Shown: positions 6,328 to 53,890, numbered from the stretch's first letter. The stretch: 64,000 bases of DNA from Chrysomallon squamiferum (GCA_012295275.1 CM022679.1:12214001-12278000), one strand, 5' to 3'. Numbers and translations: made by a program. The notes: generated by a model from the sequence alone, not told the origin.

Positions 6328-6335
6328 TTAGTATC
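6328..6335 (-). CDS. Gene A terminal exon, coding part (G-Y-stop), followed by 3' UTR
   Basis: Acceptor atttcaatttgcag|GA TAC TAA. GC-richer UTR-like sequence runs to ~6040, with AATAAA signals on the - strand near 5943-5955. Least certain exon because it is so short. Confidence 0.55.
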
Positions 6336-9300
6336 CTGCAAATTGAAATGATAATATTATTGTTAGAAAAATGTACCAATACATAATCGTCTTTTAACAA
6401 AATTAACAATACGTTATTTATAACAGCATTATTTATTTATTTATTTATTTATTTATTTATTATTACTATTATTATATTATTTTTTTTTTTTTTTTTAACT
6501 GGTGTCATATTTTAAGGGTGTCTGAATGGTATCTTTATCAAAGCCAGTAAAATATGCAGCAAAATTATAATGTAAAAGCTATAAAATAAATTTCGTCGCT
6601 ATATTCAGCAATGAGTGTTCTGAACAGATTTTCACTAAACGATTACAAACTGATAAACCTGCTATTTGTAGCAATAATGTCTTGTTTAGACCGTCACATT
6701 TAAAAAAATAAATATTTCGATAAATATTATGTGCATTTAATAACTTTGAATATGCATCGCAGCAGAAACTTTTGGGTTGAACATTCCTTTAAGGATTTGT
6801 TAAAGCAATAAACTAACTGTACTGAATGTAACATACATTTAAGCACAGTTCTTTATCATAATGCCTATTCAGACGATATACGCCATATGCAAAGTTTATT
6901 CACTCGCAGTTAAAAATATATATATATATATATATATATATATATAAATTCCTTTATTATATTAATATTTCTTAAATGATTATTTAATTTGTTATTATTA
7001 TTATCCTTTTTTTAAAAAAATATTATTGTATTACTTTTTTTTTTTTTTTTTTTTATGAACGAGATCACTTAACCTCAGAAGACAAAGCACTTTCTTGCTA
7101 AGAGCGCGTGGAACAATATATACGATTAACAATAATAAATCAAACGTGTTTCAGTTCAGTCCTTTTCTTGTTACTTGCACTATTTGTTTTCTTTCTTTCC
7201 TGTTTTTTTTTTTTTTTTTTTTTTTATTTTTTTTTTTTTTTTTTTTGTAACTGGTTACGCGTTCATTAAGTATTTATTTTTAAACCGTTTCCGACACGGC
7301 TACCGTAGGAGTTTCTTTCAGAAACAGCTAACTGAATAATCTACGTTTTCCTTTGAAGAAGTACCTTATATTCTTATATATGTATTTATTATTTGTTTTT
7401 CATTCTGGTTTCATTTGTACAGACATGTTCTATAAAAGCAATTCTTTTATATTTTATAATATGGCCCTTTAAAAAAAAAAAGAACAAAAAGGCCACAAAA
7501 TCTACAATTCTATATAAAAAAAATAAAAAAATAAAATCTTTTTTTTTTTTCTTTTTTTGTATGTTGTTCGTATTTTCTAATCATTCGAAATAAAAATAAA
7601 GTACAAAACAACAAATTAAAAAGAATGACAAAATAACGCACTTAAATATAAATTATATACATATGTACATATAACAATGACTGTCACTAACTTGGATGCC
7701 AAACGATACGACTTTACGCTCCTGCTTATAGCATCACAGTTTAAAACATCTAAATTGTAACAATTTTCATTATATTGTTACGAGATTTGTAGATATTCTT
7801 GTTCGTAACAACGCCCTTTAAGACTATGCCACAGGAACAGAACAACGTAACTAACTGACCTAGATAATTTGTCTTTGGCCATTTTAGTAGTTATGTAGAT
7901 GTGCAACGAGGCATTTCTCTTAGCTGAAATACGACCAACAGAGAGAGAGAGAGAGAGAGAGAGAGAGAGAGAGAGAGAGAGAGAGAGAGAGATTTTTAAA
8001 AATTACGAAAAGAACCACACCCAGTTTCTGGTTAATTGCAAACCAGATGAATTTATCTCCCTTAGTAGATGGCTTTAATGGTAATCAAGAAAACTACGAT
8101 GGATAATGTTAAATACATCCCTAAAAGCTACGTTTTTGATAGGTCAGGTGATACTGTGACTTACAAATATTTGAAATACTTGTATATGCAACCTCTTGTG
8201 TTTACTATATAACGAGTTCAGTCATGCGCAGAAGAATATATTCGCCTATATCCATGACAGTTAAAATTACTACCGGATTTTATCACCTTTACAGAGAAGG
8301 TAAATATTTGTCGATGTAGGGATAGGTAAATGCCACGAACCTCTGTCAACGTTTTTACGATATGATATTAATGGTTTTGTTACAAAAGGAACAACGAACT
8401 GAAATCTATATGTACAAAAGGGATTGAAAAAACAACAAAAAAGAAACAATAATAAAAAAAAAATACTGCGTATTTATCTAGTACTGGGTATGTTATTTAC
8501 CACGGCAAACTCACAATAAAGTTAACAGCTTTTTTTTTCTTTCTTTCTTCATTATTTATATATTTATTTATTTGTTTGATTATTATTATTATTATTATTA
8601 TTATTATTATTATTATTATTAGAATGTCACTATTACAGTGAATAAAATAGATAATCAAAAGAAATAATAATAATAATAATAATAATAATAATAATAATAA
8701 AACCCCAAAATACAGCGAAATCGGTATCATTCCTTTTTTTTTCTCAGCTGTCCAATCACACAAATACAGACATCTATTCATCACAGAAGCAGACAGTAAC
8801 TGGCTTAATTAAATCAGATAATTTTTGACAGCTGTTATAAACTGTTTTCCGTATTTTTTCTTACCTGCAAAACCTGATTCTGGTGTGGGAGATGTTGGTG
8901 GGCTTTCCACTGTTTCGTCGTCAGAAAGGTAGTGGTCCAGAAATTGAAAAGCTTCAGCTGTTATGTTTTTACCTAGAAGTAATAATAATAATAATAACAA
9001 CAACAACAACAACAAATACAACATAAAACAAAATATATCACGAAGAAGAGATAATTGTGATAAATAAAGATGTTCATTACATATATCGAATGATAACCGA
9101 CACTCACAAAAATATCGGTATAAAAAAAAAAAAAAAAAAAAAAAGACAGGATCTAGAAACTAGATAACAAAGCAATTTAATATAGCTGCTATGACAAGTT
9201 TTATTGCATTCTTTTATTCACCAGATTGGAAGATAACAAGTTCAAATTGTGTAGATTTCTCTCCCCTCTTTCTTTTTTATTTATTTATTTATTTTTATTT

Positions 9301-12300
9301 TTGTTTTATACATTACTAAAACTTAATAACGTTTTTATTTACATTTTTTATTTCAACTGCTTAATTTCGTTTCCCTGAATATTAATGAACTCCCGCCTCG
9401 ACTTGCATTTATTCATACCCCCTTTTAATGCATATCGCTGCCTCAAAAGATTGAAATCATGACTCAAGGTAAATGTTGCATATTTTATTGCTTAAATGTA
9501 TTGTATTATAGACATAGTTGTCTCATGGACTGTCTGCCAGCTTCGACATGACTATTATTTATTATTATTAACATCTTTTCCTTTTGTCAAAAACATAATT
9601 TCTTAAATAAATTAATTTTTGGTTTAAAGGGGTGTCAATCAATATAAAACAACAATTTGAAAGAAAATTTTAAAATAAAATTAATGGTAAAAGAAAAGTA
9701 AAAACAAAGAAAAAAGAACATCTTGCAAACATCAATATAAATTAATTTGGTTTAGCAACACAATTTAATGAACATTTTCATTTTGAATCAAGTTAAGAGT
9801 GATAATAAAATAATAAAATTATTATTAATAATAATAACAATAATAATAATAATAATAATAATAATAATAATAAATAATAATAAATAAATAAGTAAATAAA
9901 TAAATAAATAAATAATAAAAGTAAAACAGACAAAAGGTTGAAGGTGCCCACCCAAAAAATCAATTTTATTCAATAACTGATTCGTGTTTGTCTAGTATCA
10001 CTGAGCAGGAACAATAGCGGGTGTGGCGAGCTCGGACCAAAGGATTGTCTCGTATTTCCATCTTCATTACATCGAACTTTTATATGAACAAAATTCAGTG
10101 GTCACATGGGATAAGGAACAATTCATGCGATATAATCGTTAATAGATGCATCCGTGCGTGTCGTCCGGTGTAACACGTTGATATGTCGTGTGTTATTACT
10201 TCGCACTATACATATCTATGCTGATTTCACAATGTCATCGTCGTATTTTCATCTAAAACTGATCTATGTGAATGATAAATCTGTTTACAATGATCTATAT
10301 TTAGCTGGCAATCATATTGACTTTATGAATGATTGTTTCAGTGGGGATAAATATAATTAAAAACCTATTAAACAGTTTATTTATAAGACAAAAAAAGAAG
10401 AAAAAAAAGGACCTAAAAATATCCTTCCGGTCCGATCAGTTATCTAGAATGTGAATTACTGCTATTGGCCACGAATCCACTTTAAAAATTACTTCCCTGT
10501 TATAGAATGTCTGTTGAGCCTAGTTGCTGGGTCCACTAACTGAAGATTATAATAGCAAAAGCTTCTCATGTTTTCTGATGTTTTCTAAATCACAAATATC
10601 GGTTCATCTGCCCATGGCTGTGTGGTTGATTATCGAATGAATTTAACATATTCAGCTTTTGATGTAATGTATTGATAACAACGGAAATATATCATAAGAA
10701 AGAACGTAACAGACAGAAAAAGAAAATCACAAAGACAGACTATGGGTACATACATTTATGAATTGACGGATTTCATATAAATATATTAATACTGAATTTA
10801 CTGCAATTTACCTTTTACTCCAAGGTCATCATGACTTTCTTGTGATTGCAATTCTTTGAGTTTGTCAGCCTCTCCGACAGATTCCCCAGTGTCTGCATTG
10901 CGACTCGTCGAAGCAGTTAGTAACTTAGACTCTTTGATTATCTCTTCTGGTTCTGAATACAAAGGCTCCACTGGAAGACTCTTAACTTTGGTTGCGTCTT
11001 TAGATTTTTTCATTTCTTTATCACCTGTTTTTTCAAGAATCATTTCTTCCATTCTTTTGACGATTGGATTTTCCTCGTAGCCGTCAGGCTTGTCGTTGCT
11101 GCTTTTAGCAGGAACTGCGTATACAGAACCTTCGTAAACGTAATGCTGCACCTTAATATCTTCCTCATCCTCTACGACGTATTTTTCATCATCGGTTTTG
11201 TTAATAATTGGTCTTTGTTCTTTTTTTTCTTGCAGCTTCATGCTGTCCGTTGCCACCCGTGTTTCCAAAGCGGCAACAGCAGAAAGGACTTCACCTTTTT
11301 GGTGATGTCTGCCGCTGTCGTTTTTTGATTGACTCGGAACCGATTCCACTTTTTCAGAAGTAGGAGAACCACAGAAAGCCGGGTTATCAAAGCCAGCATT
11401 GGAGAGTGACTCTTTGGAAACTGCCTTCGGTCTAACAGACACGTCTACAGGTCGTTCAACAGACGTCGATTTTTCTTGTTGGACACGATGTTTCTGAAGA
11501 TGTTCGTGAGAATGATGTCTTTCGGAATATCTGGACTGATGTCTGCTCTCGGAATGTCTGTCTGAATATCTCTCGGAATGTCTGTCTGGATTTCTCTCTG
11601 AATACTTGTCCGTGTATTTGTCTGAGGGTCTATCAGGAACGTGGTGCCTCGAACGATGATGTTTGTCTGCACCAATGTCGCTTTGTGATCTTTTAAGTTT
11701 CTTGCCATCTCTGCGATGTCTATCAGCTGAATCTCTTTCCAGAAGTCGAGAGCGAGAATGATTTAGATCTAAGTTAGAAAGTGTTTTAAAATTATATCAA
11801 TATCGATATGAAATTATAATTTCTGATACTGTTTAAACTGATTTTTTTATTATTCAACTATAAATTTATATAAAACATTTTTTCATCATCATCATCATTA
11901 TTATTATTATTATTATTATTATTATTATTATTATTATTATTATGTATATTCCTTTAACAATACGTTCCTCGCTTAGATTACCTTGCCAAGAAATCAACAT
12001 GCCTATATATTCGCATATTTATGTACATTTTAATGAAACATACCTCCATATTCATAGACATTCATAAATCCGGATGAGCCAGAGGGTATAACCTCATAAA
12101 CCGGTGCAAGCTGCTGACTGTGGTAGAATCTCACGTTGTTCTGGTATACTGGGTGACCTTAAGAAGAAAAAACAATTGTGAGAGCATATATACAAAGAAA
12201 TTACAGCAACAATAACAAAATAATAATACCTTGTACAGTTTTGTAATATTAAAAACAATTGTGATTAACGCGAGTAGAAAATTCTATACAAATTTTTCAC

Positions 12301-53657: not shown

Positions 53658-53661
53658 CACA

Positions 53662-53890
53662 CCTGTAAAATATAGCATTTATGTATCAGTGTAAACTATG
53701 GCATTAGTCTACCAATGTAAAATACAACAAATCTTTCAGTGTAAAATATAATCTTAATTATCAGTGTAAAATATATTATTAATCGATCAAAGTAAAATAT
53801 AATTTTAATATATCAGTGTAAAATATAATATTGATCTACCAATGTAAAATATAATAATATTATTAATCATTATTTTAAAAATATAATATG
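53662..53890. repeat. ~25-26-bp degenerate minisatellite (about 8 units) abutting gene B's TM exon
   Basis: The unit atcagtgtaaaatataatatt(a/g)at(c/a)t and its variants repeat from the splice acceptor outward. Confidence 0.85.

What the first reader, a model, noticed from the sequence alone, without database searches (positions are those of the whole stretch)
6328..53662. Tandem pair of paralogous, signal-peptide-less single-pass membrane adaptor genes (candidate undescribed family)
Seen: genes A and B are on the same strand ~39 kb apart and share architecture. Each has cag|GT..., ATG GC, exactly 101 coding nt, then a phase-2 intron. The TM segments align without gaps at 11/33 identities (MA, I10, G13xxA16G17G18xLL, I25, Y30). 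Both have an acidic N-terminus of a few residues, a G13xxxG17 motif and Cys at the cytoplasmic edge. Exon 2 (phase 2-1) opens with a basic REKK cluster in both (DNA AGAGAAAAGAAAA), then a Pro/Tyr segment. The large exon opens with an R/H/S-rich block (RHRR...HSHE). The distal tails have diverged completely. Established: a tiny ectodomain + TM + palmitoylatable Cys + disordered motif-rich tail is the design of vertebrate transmembrane adaptors (LAT, PAG1, PRR7), and GxxxG promotes helix dimerisation. Inference: an invertebrate adaptor family whose members may homo- or heterodimerise, with A supplying pTyr/endocytic motifs and B supplying PY/polyPro/PP1/PDZ motifs. I recognise no named orthologue.
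Basis: partly seen in the sequence, partly recalled or inferred. Interest (0 to 1): 0.78.

Follow-up and report, generated by a model that had tools for sequence, protein, structure and literature searches.

The report
Unstudied mollusc membrane adaptor and offshoot
A sea-snail genome carries one gene of an unstudied membrane-protein family shared by snails, clams and cephalopods, which likely works as a docking platform for signalling proteins, next to a second gene that shares only its membrane anchor and is probably a fast-changing offshoot of it.

Summary
Both genes are there as described (minus strand, ATGs 39,265 bp apart, 101-nt TM exon, phase-2 intron, 11/33 identities). Gene A (517 aa) matches a RefSeq protein of the vent snail Gigantopelta aegis exon by exon. 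It belongs to an uncharacterised family found in gastropods, bivalves and a cephalopod, with no Pfam match at cut-off. The family has one signal-less N-terminal TM helix, a juxtamembrane Cys-Gly plus basic stretch, and a disordered tail with short conserved motifs (LPKV..LW, YHSQ, RSxSD, TDSxK, AFxFLxxY) and nine conserved tyrosines. Gene B (676 aa, predicted) has none of the six tail blocks and no homologue was found. Only its TM/juxtamembrane part scores on the A profile (19-23 bits, best unrelated PDB chain 17.3). With adjacency and the shared intron position, a common origin of that part is likely (~0.7), but B is not a member of the A family. The design matches LAT/PAG-type adaptors without detectable homology. 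Adaptor function, palmitoylation and dimerisation are inferred only. The useful finding is the ancient A family, not a matched pair.

The parts
14292..14392 (-). Gene A coding exon 1: 8-residue acidic ectodomain, TM helix with G13xxxG17, Cys33-Gly34; in-frame TGA two codons before the ATG
   Evidence: 91% identical to G. aegis XP_041362723 residues 1-34
13025..13290 (-). Gene A exon 2 (phase 2-1): basic stretch, LPKV..GLW motif, Pro/Tyr segment
   Evidence: 70% identical to G. aegis; 47.8 bits on the family block
12044..12157 (-). Gene A exon 3 (phase 1-1): YHSQQ motif and YEVI tyrosine motif
   Evidence: 90%; 54.8 bits
10812..11768 (-). Gene A exon 4 (phase 1-1): RSxSD, R/H/S/D repeats, TDSxK, HYxYxGxxYxVP and NPIxxRM motifs
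   Evidence: (63%)
8865..8972 (-). Gene A exon 5 (phase 1-1): AFxFLDxYLSDDE motif, predicted helix, then SP/TP sites
   Evidence: 95%; 58.9 bits; helix 488-508 of the G. aegis orthologue
6328..6335 (-). Gene A last coding exon (Gly-Tyr-stop)
   Evidence: same C-terminus as G. aegis and Haliotis orthologues
53557..53657 (-). Gene B coding exon 1: acidic N-terminus, TM helix with G13xxxG17, Cys31; acceptor 5 nt upstream, frame open (phase 1)
   Evidence: 17.7 bits on the A-family TM block, the best non-A hit among 3,433 window ORF fragments
52663..52973 (-). Gene B exon 2 (phase 2-1): basic stretch with REKK, Pro/Met/Tyr segment with LPPY and LPGY
   Evidence: 0.34 bits per codon on a codon model trained on A
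52014..52044 (-). Gene B predicted micro-exon 3 (31 nt, phase 1-2); unconfirmed
   Evidence: canonical sites, restores frame; no transcript evidence
51646..51664 (-). Gene B predicted micro-exon 4 (19 nt, phase 2-0); unconfirmed
   Evidence: canonical sites, restores frame; no transcript evidence
49798..51366 (-). Gene B terminal exon (522 codons): R/H/S block, internally repeated acidic-Tyr region, two FRPPTPP and two polyproline tracts, two RVxF-like sites, C-terminal TKL
   Evidence: frame kept over 49979-51366 in DNA contigs of run X1

Best explanation
Gene A encodes a member of a mollusc-wide family of single-pass proteins with a tiny outside part and a long conserved-motif tail, which likely acts as a membrane-anchored docking adaptor, and neighbouring gene B probably arose from it by tandem duplication, keeping the anchor but replacing the tail. 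Shown: the gene models, the family, its motifs and B's lack of them. Predicted: N-out/C-in topology (acidic N-flank, basic C-flank), one TM helix, a disordered tail with two short helices. Inferred mechanism for A: the TM helix inserts without a signal peptide; the conserved juxtamembrane Cys is S-palmitoylated and, with the basic stretch, holds the protein in ordered membrane patches; kinases phosphorylate conserved Tyr (YHSQ, YEV, YxYxGxxYxVP) and RxxS sites; SH2-type and 14-3-3-type readers and a helix-binding partner of the AFxFLDxYL motif then assemble on the tail. With an 8-residue ectodomain it would not bind ligand itself and would be switched on by a separate receptor. B would use the same anchor to display a different, weakly constrained set of sites (acidic Tyr, PY, polyproline, RVxF, PDZ-type end), suggesting links to actin regulators and turnover.
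For: A equals G. aegis XP_041362723-6 in start, exon order and end. phmmer over 1.84 billion representatives gave 51 hits; the 21 aligned proteins include 11 gastropod, 5 bivalve, 1 cephalopod and 4 unnamed rows. The tree broadly follows mollusc classes, A sister to G. aegis 100/100. Motif counts of 21: LPKV..LW 19, Y[HR]S[QN] 21, RSxSD 19, T[DE]SxK 19, AFxFLxxY 21; nine cytoplasmic Tyr columns in 15 or more; G17 15/16, G13 13/16, C33 15/16. One hydrophobic segment per protein. AlphaFold: confident helix 3-46, 410 of 529 residues under pLDDT 50, helices 401-412 and 488-508. PAG has the same anatomy: no signal sequence, 16-aa ectodomain, palmitoylated CSSC, basic stretch, Tyr-rich tail (PMC2213442, passages). 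For B's origin: 23.0 bits on the A profile (18.9 for residues 4-42) against 17.3 for the best of 177,635 PDB sequences; on the N-terminal profile B scores 28.5-33.4, like the two most divergent true members (28.7, 32.2), with 20 of 2,000 half-TM shuffles reaching it; same intron position; no coding-like exon between the genes (best codon scores 9.1 and 10.4 bits).
Against: No experiment or expression data bear on function. No homology to vertebrate adaptors was detected: no Pfam match at cut-off, and Atlas feature hits to LIME1/PAG, SCIMP and poxvirus A36 score 0.80-0.86, which shuffled proteins often reach. The TM start motif is generic: the A profile also picks up SCN2B, syndecan-2, CD4 and integrin TMs, and B's margin over these is only 1.6 bits on the same span. 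Pairwise phmmer of the G. aegis protein against B is not significant (E 2e8 at library size). B has 0 of 6 tail blocks, lacks the family's Cys33-Gly34, and sits on a long, unplaceable branch in the 46-residue tree, not next to A. The cephalopod-type rows lack G13xxxG17, RSxSD and TDSxK. The codon-score scan is weak for AT-rich or TM exons (the true TM exons score near 0).
Confidence: 0.5

Rival explanations
1. A-family proteins are auxiliary or sorting subunits of a channel, transporter or receptor: the small-residue face of the TM helix binds the client and the tail motifs control its traffic and phosphorylation, rather than relaying a signal.
For: The glycine-rich N-terminal half of the TM is conserved in gastropods and bivalves, and the best PDB match of the profile is the TM of the sodium-channel subunit SCN2B, 17.3 bits. 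A has two YxxPhi sites. Small single-pass auxiliary subunits such as KCNE and FXYD have this outline (recalled).
Against: The SCN2B match is not significant (E 0.02) and is of the generic TM kind. Most invariant residues lie in the tail, not the TM, and the cephalopod-type rows lose the glycine motif but keep three tail motifs.
Confidence: 0.25
2. B is unrelated to A. Both are type III membrane proteins whose TM start, basic stretch and post-TM intron look alike for biophysical reasons, and they are neighbours by chance.
For: No tail similarity; B's TM exceeds unrelated PDB TMs by 1.6-5.7 bits only; 3.7% of half-TM shuffles give 11 identities; the REKK word is low-complexity and recurs at 55715.
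Against: Same strand, adjacent, same Met-to-intron distance and phase, same second-intron phase, and a profile score above every PDB chain would all have to coincide.
Confidence: 0.22
3. B's TM exon is internal: upstream phase-1 exons beyond the window encode a signal peptide and ectodomain, and B is the end of a type I receptor.
For: B's acceptor lies 5 nt before the ATG in phase 1 with the frame open, whereas A has an in-frame stop.
Against: No in-frame ectodomain-like exon was seen in the 10.3 kb upstream; the best candidate (57683-57600, 13.2 bits) ends in phase 2 in its scored frame. The ATG has a purine at -3 and G at +4 and sits in register with A's start.
Confidence: 0.1
4. A and B are co-expressed and pair through their GxxxG helices into one adaptor complex with complementary tails.
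For: Both carry G13xxxG17 in register; the genes are adjacent; the tails carry different motif sets.
Against: A is conserved across molluscs while B appears weakly constrained (7 of 9 listed exon differences in run X1 are non-synonymous, neutral expectation 0.75), which fits an obligate partner poorly. Small-xxx-small starts are common to unrelated TMs.
Confidence: 0.1

Closest known systems
Gigantopelta aegis LOC121378559 (XP_041362723-6) and mollusc orthologues, e.g. Lottia LOTGIDRAFT_230124, Aplysia LOC101863806, Ostrea edulis LOC125668794, Argonauta GAB1600114
   Same: Gene A is the orthologue: 63-95% identity per exon to G. aegis, all motifs present.
   Different: All are labelled uncharacterised or hypothetical. 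Gene B has none of the six tail blocks.
Vertebrate transmembrane adaptor proteins (PAG1/Cbp, LAT, LIME1, SCIMP)
   Same: No signal sequence, ectodomain of a few residues, one TM helix, juxtamembrane Cys then basic residues, long Tyr-bearing tail (PAG: PMC2213442, passages; the others recalled).
   Different: No sequence homology detected. A has one conserved Cys-Gly rather than CxxC, only two YxxV/L/I/M/F sites, a Gly-rich TM and conserved non-Tyr motifs. No link to an immunoreceptor is known.
LD-like helical motif of CCM2 binding the CCM3 FAT-homology domain
   Same: A short amphipathic helix with a hydrophobic-acid-Phe-Leu-Asp core; in CCM2 I226, F228, L229, A232 and I233 contact CCM3 (PMC4384732, passages). 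The A-family AFxFLDxYL stretch puts F, F, L, Y, L at those positions and is predicted helical.
   Different: Match by eye over about nine residues; Tyr replaces Ala232; the same hexamer occurs in unrelated Drosophila SLBP (PMC11524581, passage). A lead only.
PY-motif single-pass proteins (PRR7, WBP1, PMEPA1, Commissureless; recalled)
   Same: B has a TM followed by a Pro/Tyr segment with LPPY and LPGY.
   Different: No Pfam match for B exons 2 or 5 even at E 10; A has no PPxY/LPxY.

Membership tests
Mollusc LOC121378559 family (gene A) | TM/juxtamembrane block plus six tail blocks in order | tested here: met
   26-71 bits on each of seven blocks; 412 bits on the full profile (which includes the close G. 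aegis orthologue)
Mollusc LOC121378559 family (gene B) | TM/juxtamembrane block | tested here: inconclusive
   19-23 bits against 17.3 for the best unrelated PDB chain; lacks Cys33-Gly34
Mollusc LOC121378559 family (gene B) | Tail motifs LPKV..LW, YHSQ, RSxSD, TDSxK, YxYxG/NPI, AFxFLxxY | tested here: not met
   no positive score on any of 6 blocks in B's model, and no second copy in 3,433 window ORF fragments (best E 0.22); one loose RSxSD-pattern match at residue 544, out of order
Vertebrate transmembrane adaptors (LAT/PAG/LIME1) | Signal-less single N-terminal TM, tiny ectodomain, tail inside | tested here: met
   hydropathy and flank charges, AlphaFold model, same start in RefSeq orthologue; prediction only, and B's 5' end is unconfirmed
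Vertebrate transmembrane adaptors (LAT/PAG/LIME1) | Juxtamembrane CxxC palmitoylation site followed by basic residues | tested here: inconclusive
   Cys33 in 15 of 16 orthologues and a basic stretch in all 16, but not a conserved CxxC; acylation itself cannot be tested
Vertebrate transmembrane adaptors (LAT/PAG/LIME1) | Several Tyr motifs that are phosphorylated and bind SH2 proteins | not testable with these tools
   nine conserved cytoplasmic Tyr columns; only 2 YxxPhi in A
Vertebrate transmembrane adaptors (LAT/PAG/LIME1) | Sequence homology to the Pfam families of these proteins | tested here: not met
   no match near cut-off among the families listed (25 of 43 shown); Atlas scores 0.80, lead level only
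LD-like motifs (CCM2 type) | Short amphipathic helix with Phe-Leu-Asp core in a disordered region | tested here: met
   helix 488-508 at pLDDT 63-68; FLDxY[LI] in 13 of 21, AFxFLxxY in 21 of 21
LD-like motifs (CCM2 type) | Binding to a FAT or FAT-homology domain | not testable with these tools

The most novel reading that the evidence does not exclude
Molluscs have kept since before the split of snails, clams and cephalopods their own LAT/PAG-like membrane adaptor, unrelated to the vertebrate ones, whose invariant C-terminal LD-like helix recruits CCM3/STRIPAK or a FAT-domain protein to phosphotyrosine sites at the membrane; in this snail lineage a tandem copy has rebuilt its whole tail into an acidic-tyrosine and polyproline platform and pairs with the parent through the shared GxxxG helix.
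Probability: 0.08. Interest if true: 0.72.

Novelty: new variant of a known kind. Interest (0 to 1): 0.42.

Why it matters
Receptor-proximal adaptors of the LAT/PAG type are known mainly from vertebrate blood cells (recalled). A family with that design, kept across three mollusc classes with invariant short motifs in an otherwise disordered tail, gives ready peptides for pull-downs and a way into tyrosine-kinase signalling in oysters, Aplysia and Lymnaea. B, if a true offshoot, shows how a membrane-anchor exon can be reused with a new tail. Interest is moderate: the proteins are already in databases as uncharacterised, uncharacterised single-pass disordered proteins are common, and no function was shown.

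Tried and rejected
Homologues of B: none at E 0.001 among 7,981 candidates for exon 5 at 286-910 aa; none at E 1 among 28 candidates for exon 2 at 182-2000 aa; none in JGI metagenome contigs (431 pattern matches, 0 confirmed); no usable Atlas hit. The word search is weak: with A's exon 4 it found 2 proteins where phmmer with the full orthologue found the whole family. So B's absence elsewhere is not shown. Complex prediction of the A-family N-terminus (48 aa; alignment not used by the tool) with B's TM exon: score 0.04, mark 0.34, verdict 'no answer'; counted neither for nor against. Expression: no RNA holder listed; the three RNA runs laid gave only 21-35-nt matches among the pieces listed and do not cover B's exons; no read data were obtained for gene A. 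No whole genome is held, so synteny and further copies were not examined. A-family loci in metagenome contigs: 81 pattern matches, 0 confirmed. PDB search with A's exon 5: one chance hit, E 3.4. Structure-based Atlas rows for A all have TM 0.23 or less by query. A micro-exon for the three extra residues that G. aegis has at the exon 2/3 junction was sought and not found. A stretch at 35394-35296 faintly like the C-terminal motif (E 7) was not among the top block hits: rejected. A WH2-like reading of B's tail: no Pfam support. An extracellular, shell-matrix-like reading of B's acidic tail was rejected on flank charges. Literature: 12 identifiers in two searches, 0 papers; mollusc + transmembrane adaptor + palmitoylation + invertebrate, 0 papers; five motif words, 3 papers held them, 2 listed, neither on this family (one passage read); supplements of PMC11871041, 0 hits for five terms, one scanned file not searchable. 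Supplements of other papers are not covered by these searches and could list these genes. PMC3137079 is not held. Earlier findings by place and by sequence: none.

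
Full report
Observation. The window is 31% GC and rich in microsatellites. A scan for ATG GC followed after 101 nt by GT finds both TM exons on the minus strand, at 14392 and 53657, plus one non-hydrophobic chance hit. Splicing by coordinates gives two complete frames with GT-AG introns: A, six coding exons, 517 aa; B, five coding exons, 676 aa (one search was a first try with off-by-one coordinates). The 11 identities in 33 residues, the intron phases and the REKK word are as described, with the corrections listed under the observation check. I read the sequence of the whole window and saw no protein-coding gene between A and B; a codon-score scan agrees but is weak for AT-rich exons.

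Gene A is independently confirmed. Its large exon finds a 529-aa RefSeq protein of the vent snail Gigantopelta aegis (2 hits among 1,056 candidates; four accessions with the same protein). That protein maps onto five exons at 91, 70, 90, 63 and 95% identity and has the same start and C-terminus. The window is therefore from a gastropod close to G. aegis. A has an in-frame TGA two codons before its ATG, so it has no upstream ectodomain through that acceptor.

The A family. phmmer of the G. aegis protein over 1.84 billion representatives gave 51 hits. I fetched 30; 21 were not fetched because they match only the His/Arg/Asp repeat region. Of the 30, 21 near-full-length proteins were aligned; eight fragments and one unrelated repeat protein were left out. 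Named rows are 11 gastropods, 5 bivalves (one named through its cluster) and 1 cephalopod, all labelled uncharacterised or hypothetical; 4 rows are unnamed. The tree separates gastropods from bivalves and cephalopod-type rows (99/99) and places A with G. aegis (100/100), as expected for an old, mostly single-copy gene; Nucella has two copies. Mean column identity is 25%, but short motifs are fixed: Y[HR]S[QN] and AFxFLxxY in 21 of 21; LPKV..LW, RSxSD and T[DE]SxK in 19 of 21; nine cytoplasmic Tyr columns in 15 or more; Gly17 and Cys33 in 15 of 16 rows with a full TM. No member reaches a Pfam cut-off among the families listed; the weak matches are generic TM families. AlphaFold gives one confident N-terminal helix, a disordered tail and two short helices, on the NPIxxRM and AFxFLDxYL motifs. 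The range outside molluscs was not tested with a profile.

Gene B is real but alone so far. Its terminal exon is a 522-codon frame at raised GC that scores 0.42 bits per codon on a model trained on A. DNA contigs of run X1 keep the frame over 49979-51366; their one gap is in the intron. Of the differences listed (40 shown, 109 not), nine fall in B's exons: seven change the residue, two are silent, none makes a stop. That is what neutral change would give (expected fraction 0.75), so B seems weakly constrained, on few sites. The two micro-exons and the 5' end have no transcript support. B's tail has internal repeats, 11 of 21 Tyr with D/E at -1 (P 7e-5, partly due to the repeats; A 1 of 21), LPPY and LPGY, two RVxF-like sites, polyproline tracts and a TKL end (motif meanings recalled). 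Four searches found no homologue, but they are insensitive, so B's age is open.

Are A and B paralogues? Only the first 45-57 residues of B score on the family profile: 23.0 bits, or 18.9 for residues 4-42. The same profile gives 17.3 bits to the best of 177,635 PDB sequences, the SCN2B TM, then syndecan-2, CD4 and integrins. On an N-terminal profile B scores 28.5-33.4 bits, below most left-out members (44-80) and level with the two most divergent (28.7, 32.2); 0 of 2,000 whole-TM and 20 of 2,000 half-TM shuffles reach it. B is negative or absent on all six tail blocks, and no hidden copy of them lies elsewhere in the window. In a 46-residue tree B is a long branch with no reliable place. Sequence alone is thus borderline. 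What tips it is the conjunction: adjacent, same strand, same Met-to-intron distance and phase, and a score above every control TM. I put common origin of the TM/juxtamembrane part at about 0.7 (judgement). By the motif test B is not a member of the A family; it is at most an offshoot with a replaced tail.

How it likely works. An 8-residue acidic N-flank, one hydrophobic helix and a strongly basic C-flank predict a type III protein with its tail in the cytoplasm. PAG is built the same way, is palmitoylated next to its TM and is phosphorylated by Src-family kinases (PMC2213442, passages). For A the conserved Cys, Tyr and RxxS positions make that mode of action the best guess: anchor, become phosphorylated downstream of another receptor, recruit readers. 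The invariant C-terminal helix resembles the LD-like motif by which CCM2 binds CCM3 (PMC4384732, passages; PMC7013531, passages), but the same hexamer occurs in an unrelated protein (PMC11524581, passage), so this is a lead. All functional steps are inferred. The main rival is an auxiliary or sorting subunit that binds a client through its TM.

Comparison and novelty. It works, by design, like LAT/PAG-type adaptors but fails the homology test. Searches of the held literature by 12 identifiers, by topic and by motif found no description; subscription papers and most supplements were not searched. Searches were seen as listings only, apart from the papers named above. Two earlier AI notes on other genomes (untested) describe an arthropod adaptor-like family and a shared mollusc TM module, which suggests such designs recur. 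Verdict: a new variant of a known kind, interest 0.42. The ancient A family with its invariant motifs is the testable result; the matched tandem pair is only partly supported.

Noticed in passing
window 43357-43431 (+), 46137-46211 (-), 61853-61925 (+): Two near-identical tRNA-Thr(TGT) genes in opposite orientation and a third, weaker tRNA-like copy; possibly a tRNA-derived repeat.
   Followed up: partly
window about 733-905 and 1380-1599 (+), further exon near 1903-1990: Likely exons of a plus-strand neighbour converging on gene A; no Pfam match at E 1 for two of them.
   Followed up: partly
window about 1725-1950 and 2875-3110: A roughly 230-bp duplicated stretch that includes a splice acceptor and part of the neighbour's putative exon (seen).
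   Followed up: no
window 57600-57683 (-): An 84-nt candidate exon in a GC-richer patch 3.9 kb upstream of B, the best-scoring one there; possibly a 5' untranslated exon.
   Followed up: partly
window about 40200-40450, 42030-42210, 44000-44600: GC-richer broken reading frames that look like decayed LINE remnants (impression; recalled resemblance, not tested).
   Followed up: no
P0021 (Argonauta GAB1600114), C-terminus: The AFxFLDxYLSDD motif is present twice in tandem; either a real motif duplication or a gene-model artefact.
   Followed up: no
P0008 and P0011 (Nucella lapillus): Two A-family copies in one species; one lacks the LPKV..LW motif in its model, both keep the other tail motifs, unlike B.
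   Followed up: partly
window 52931-52954, runs X2 and X3: RNA contigs of about 2 kb match only the 24-nt REKK word and then diverge; probably a low-complexity chance match.
   Followed up: no
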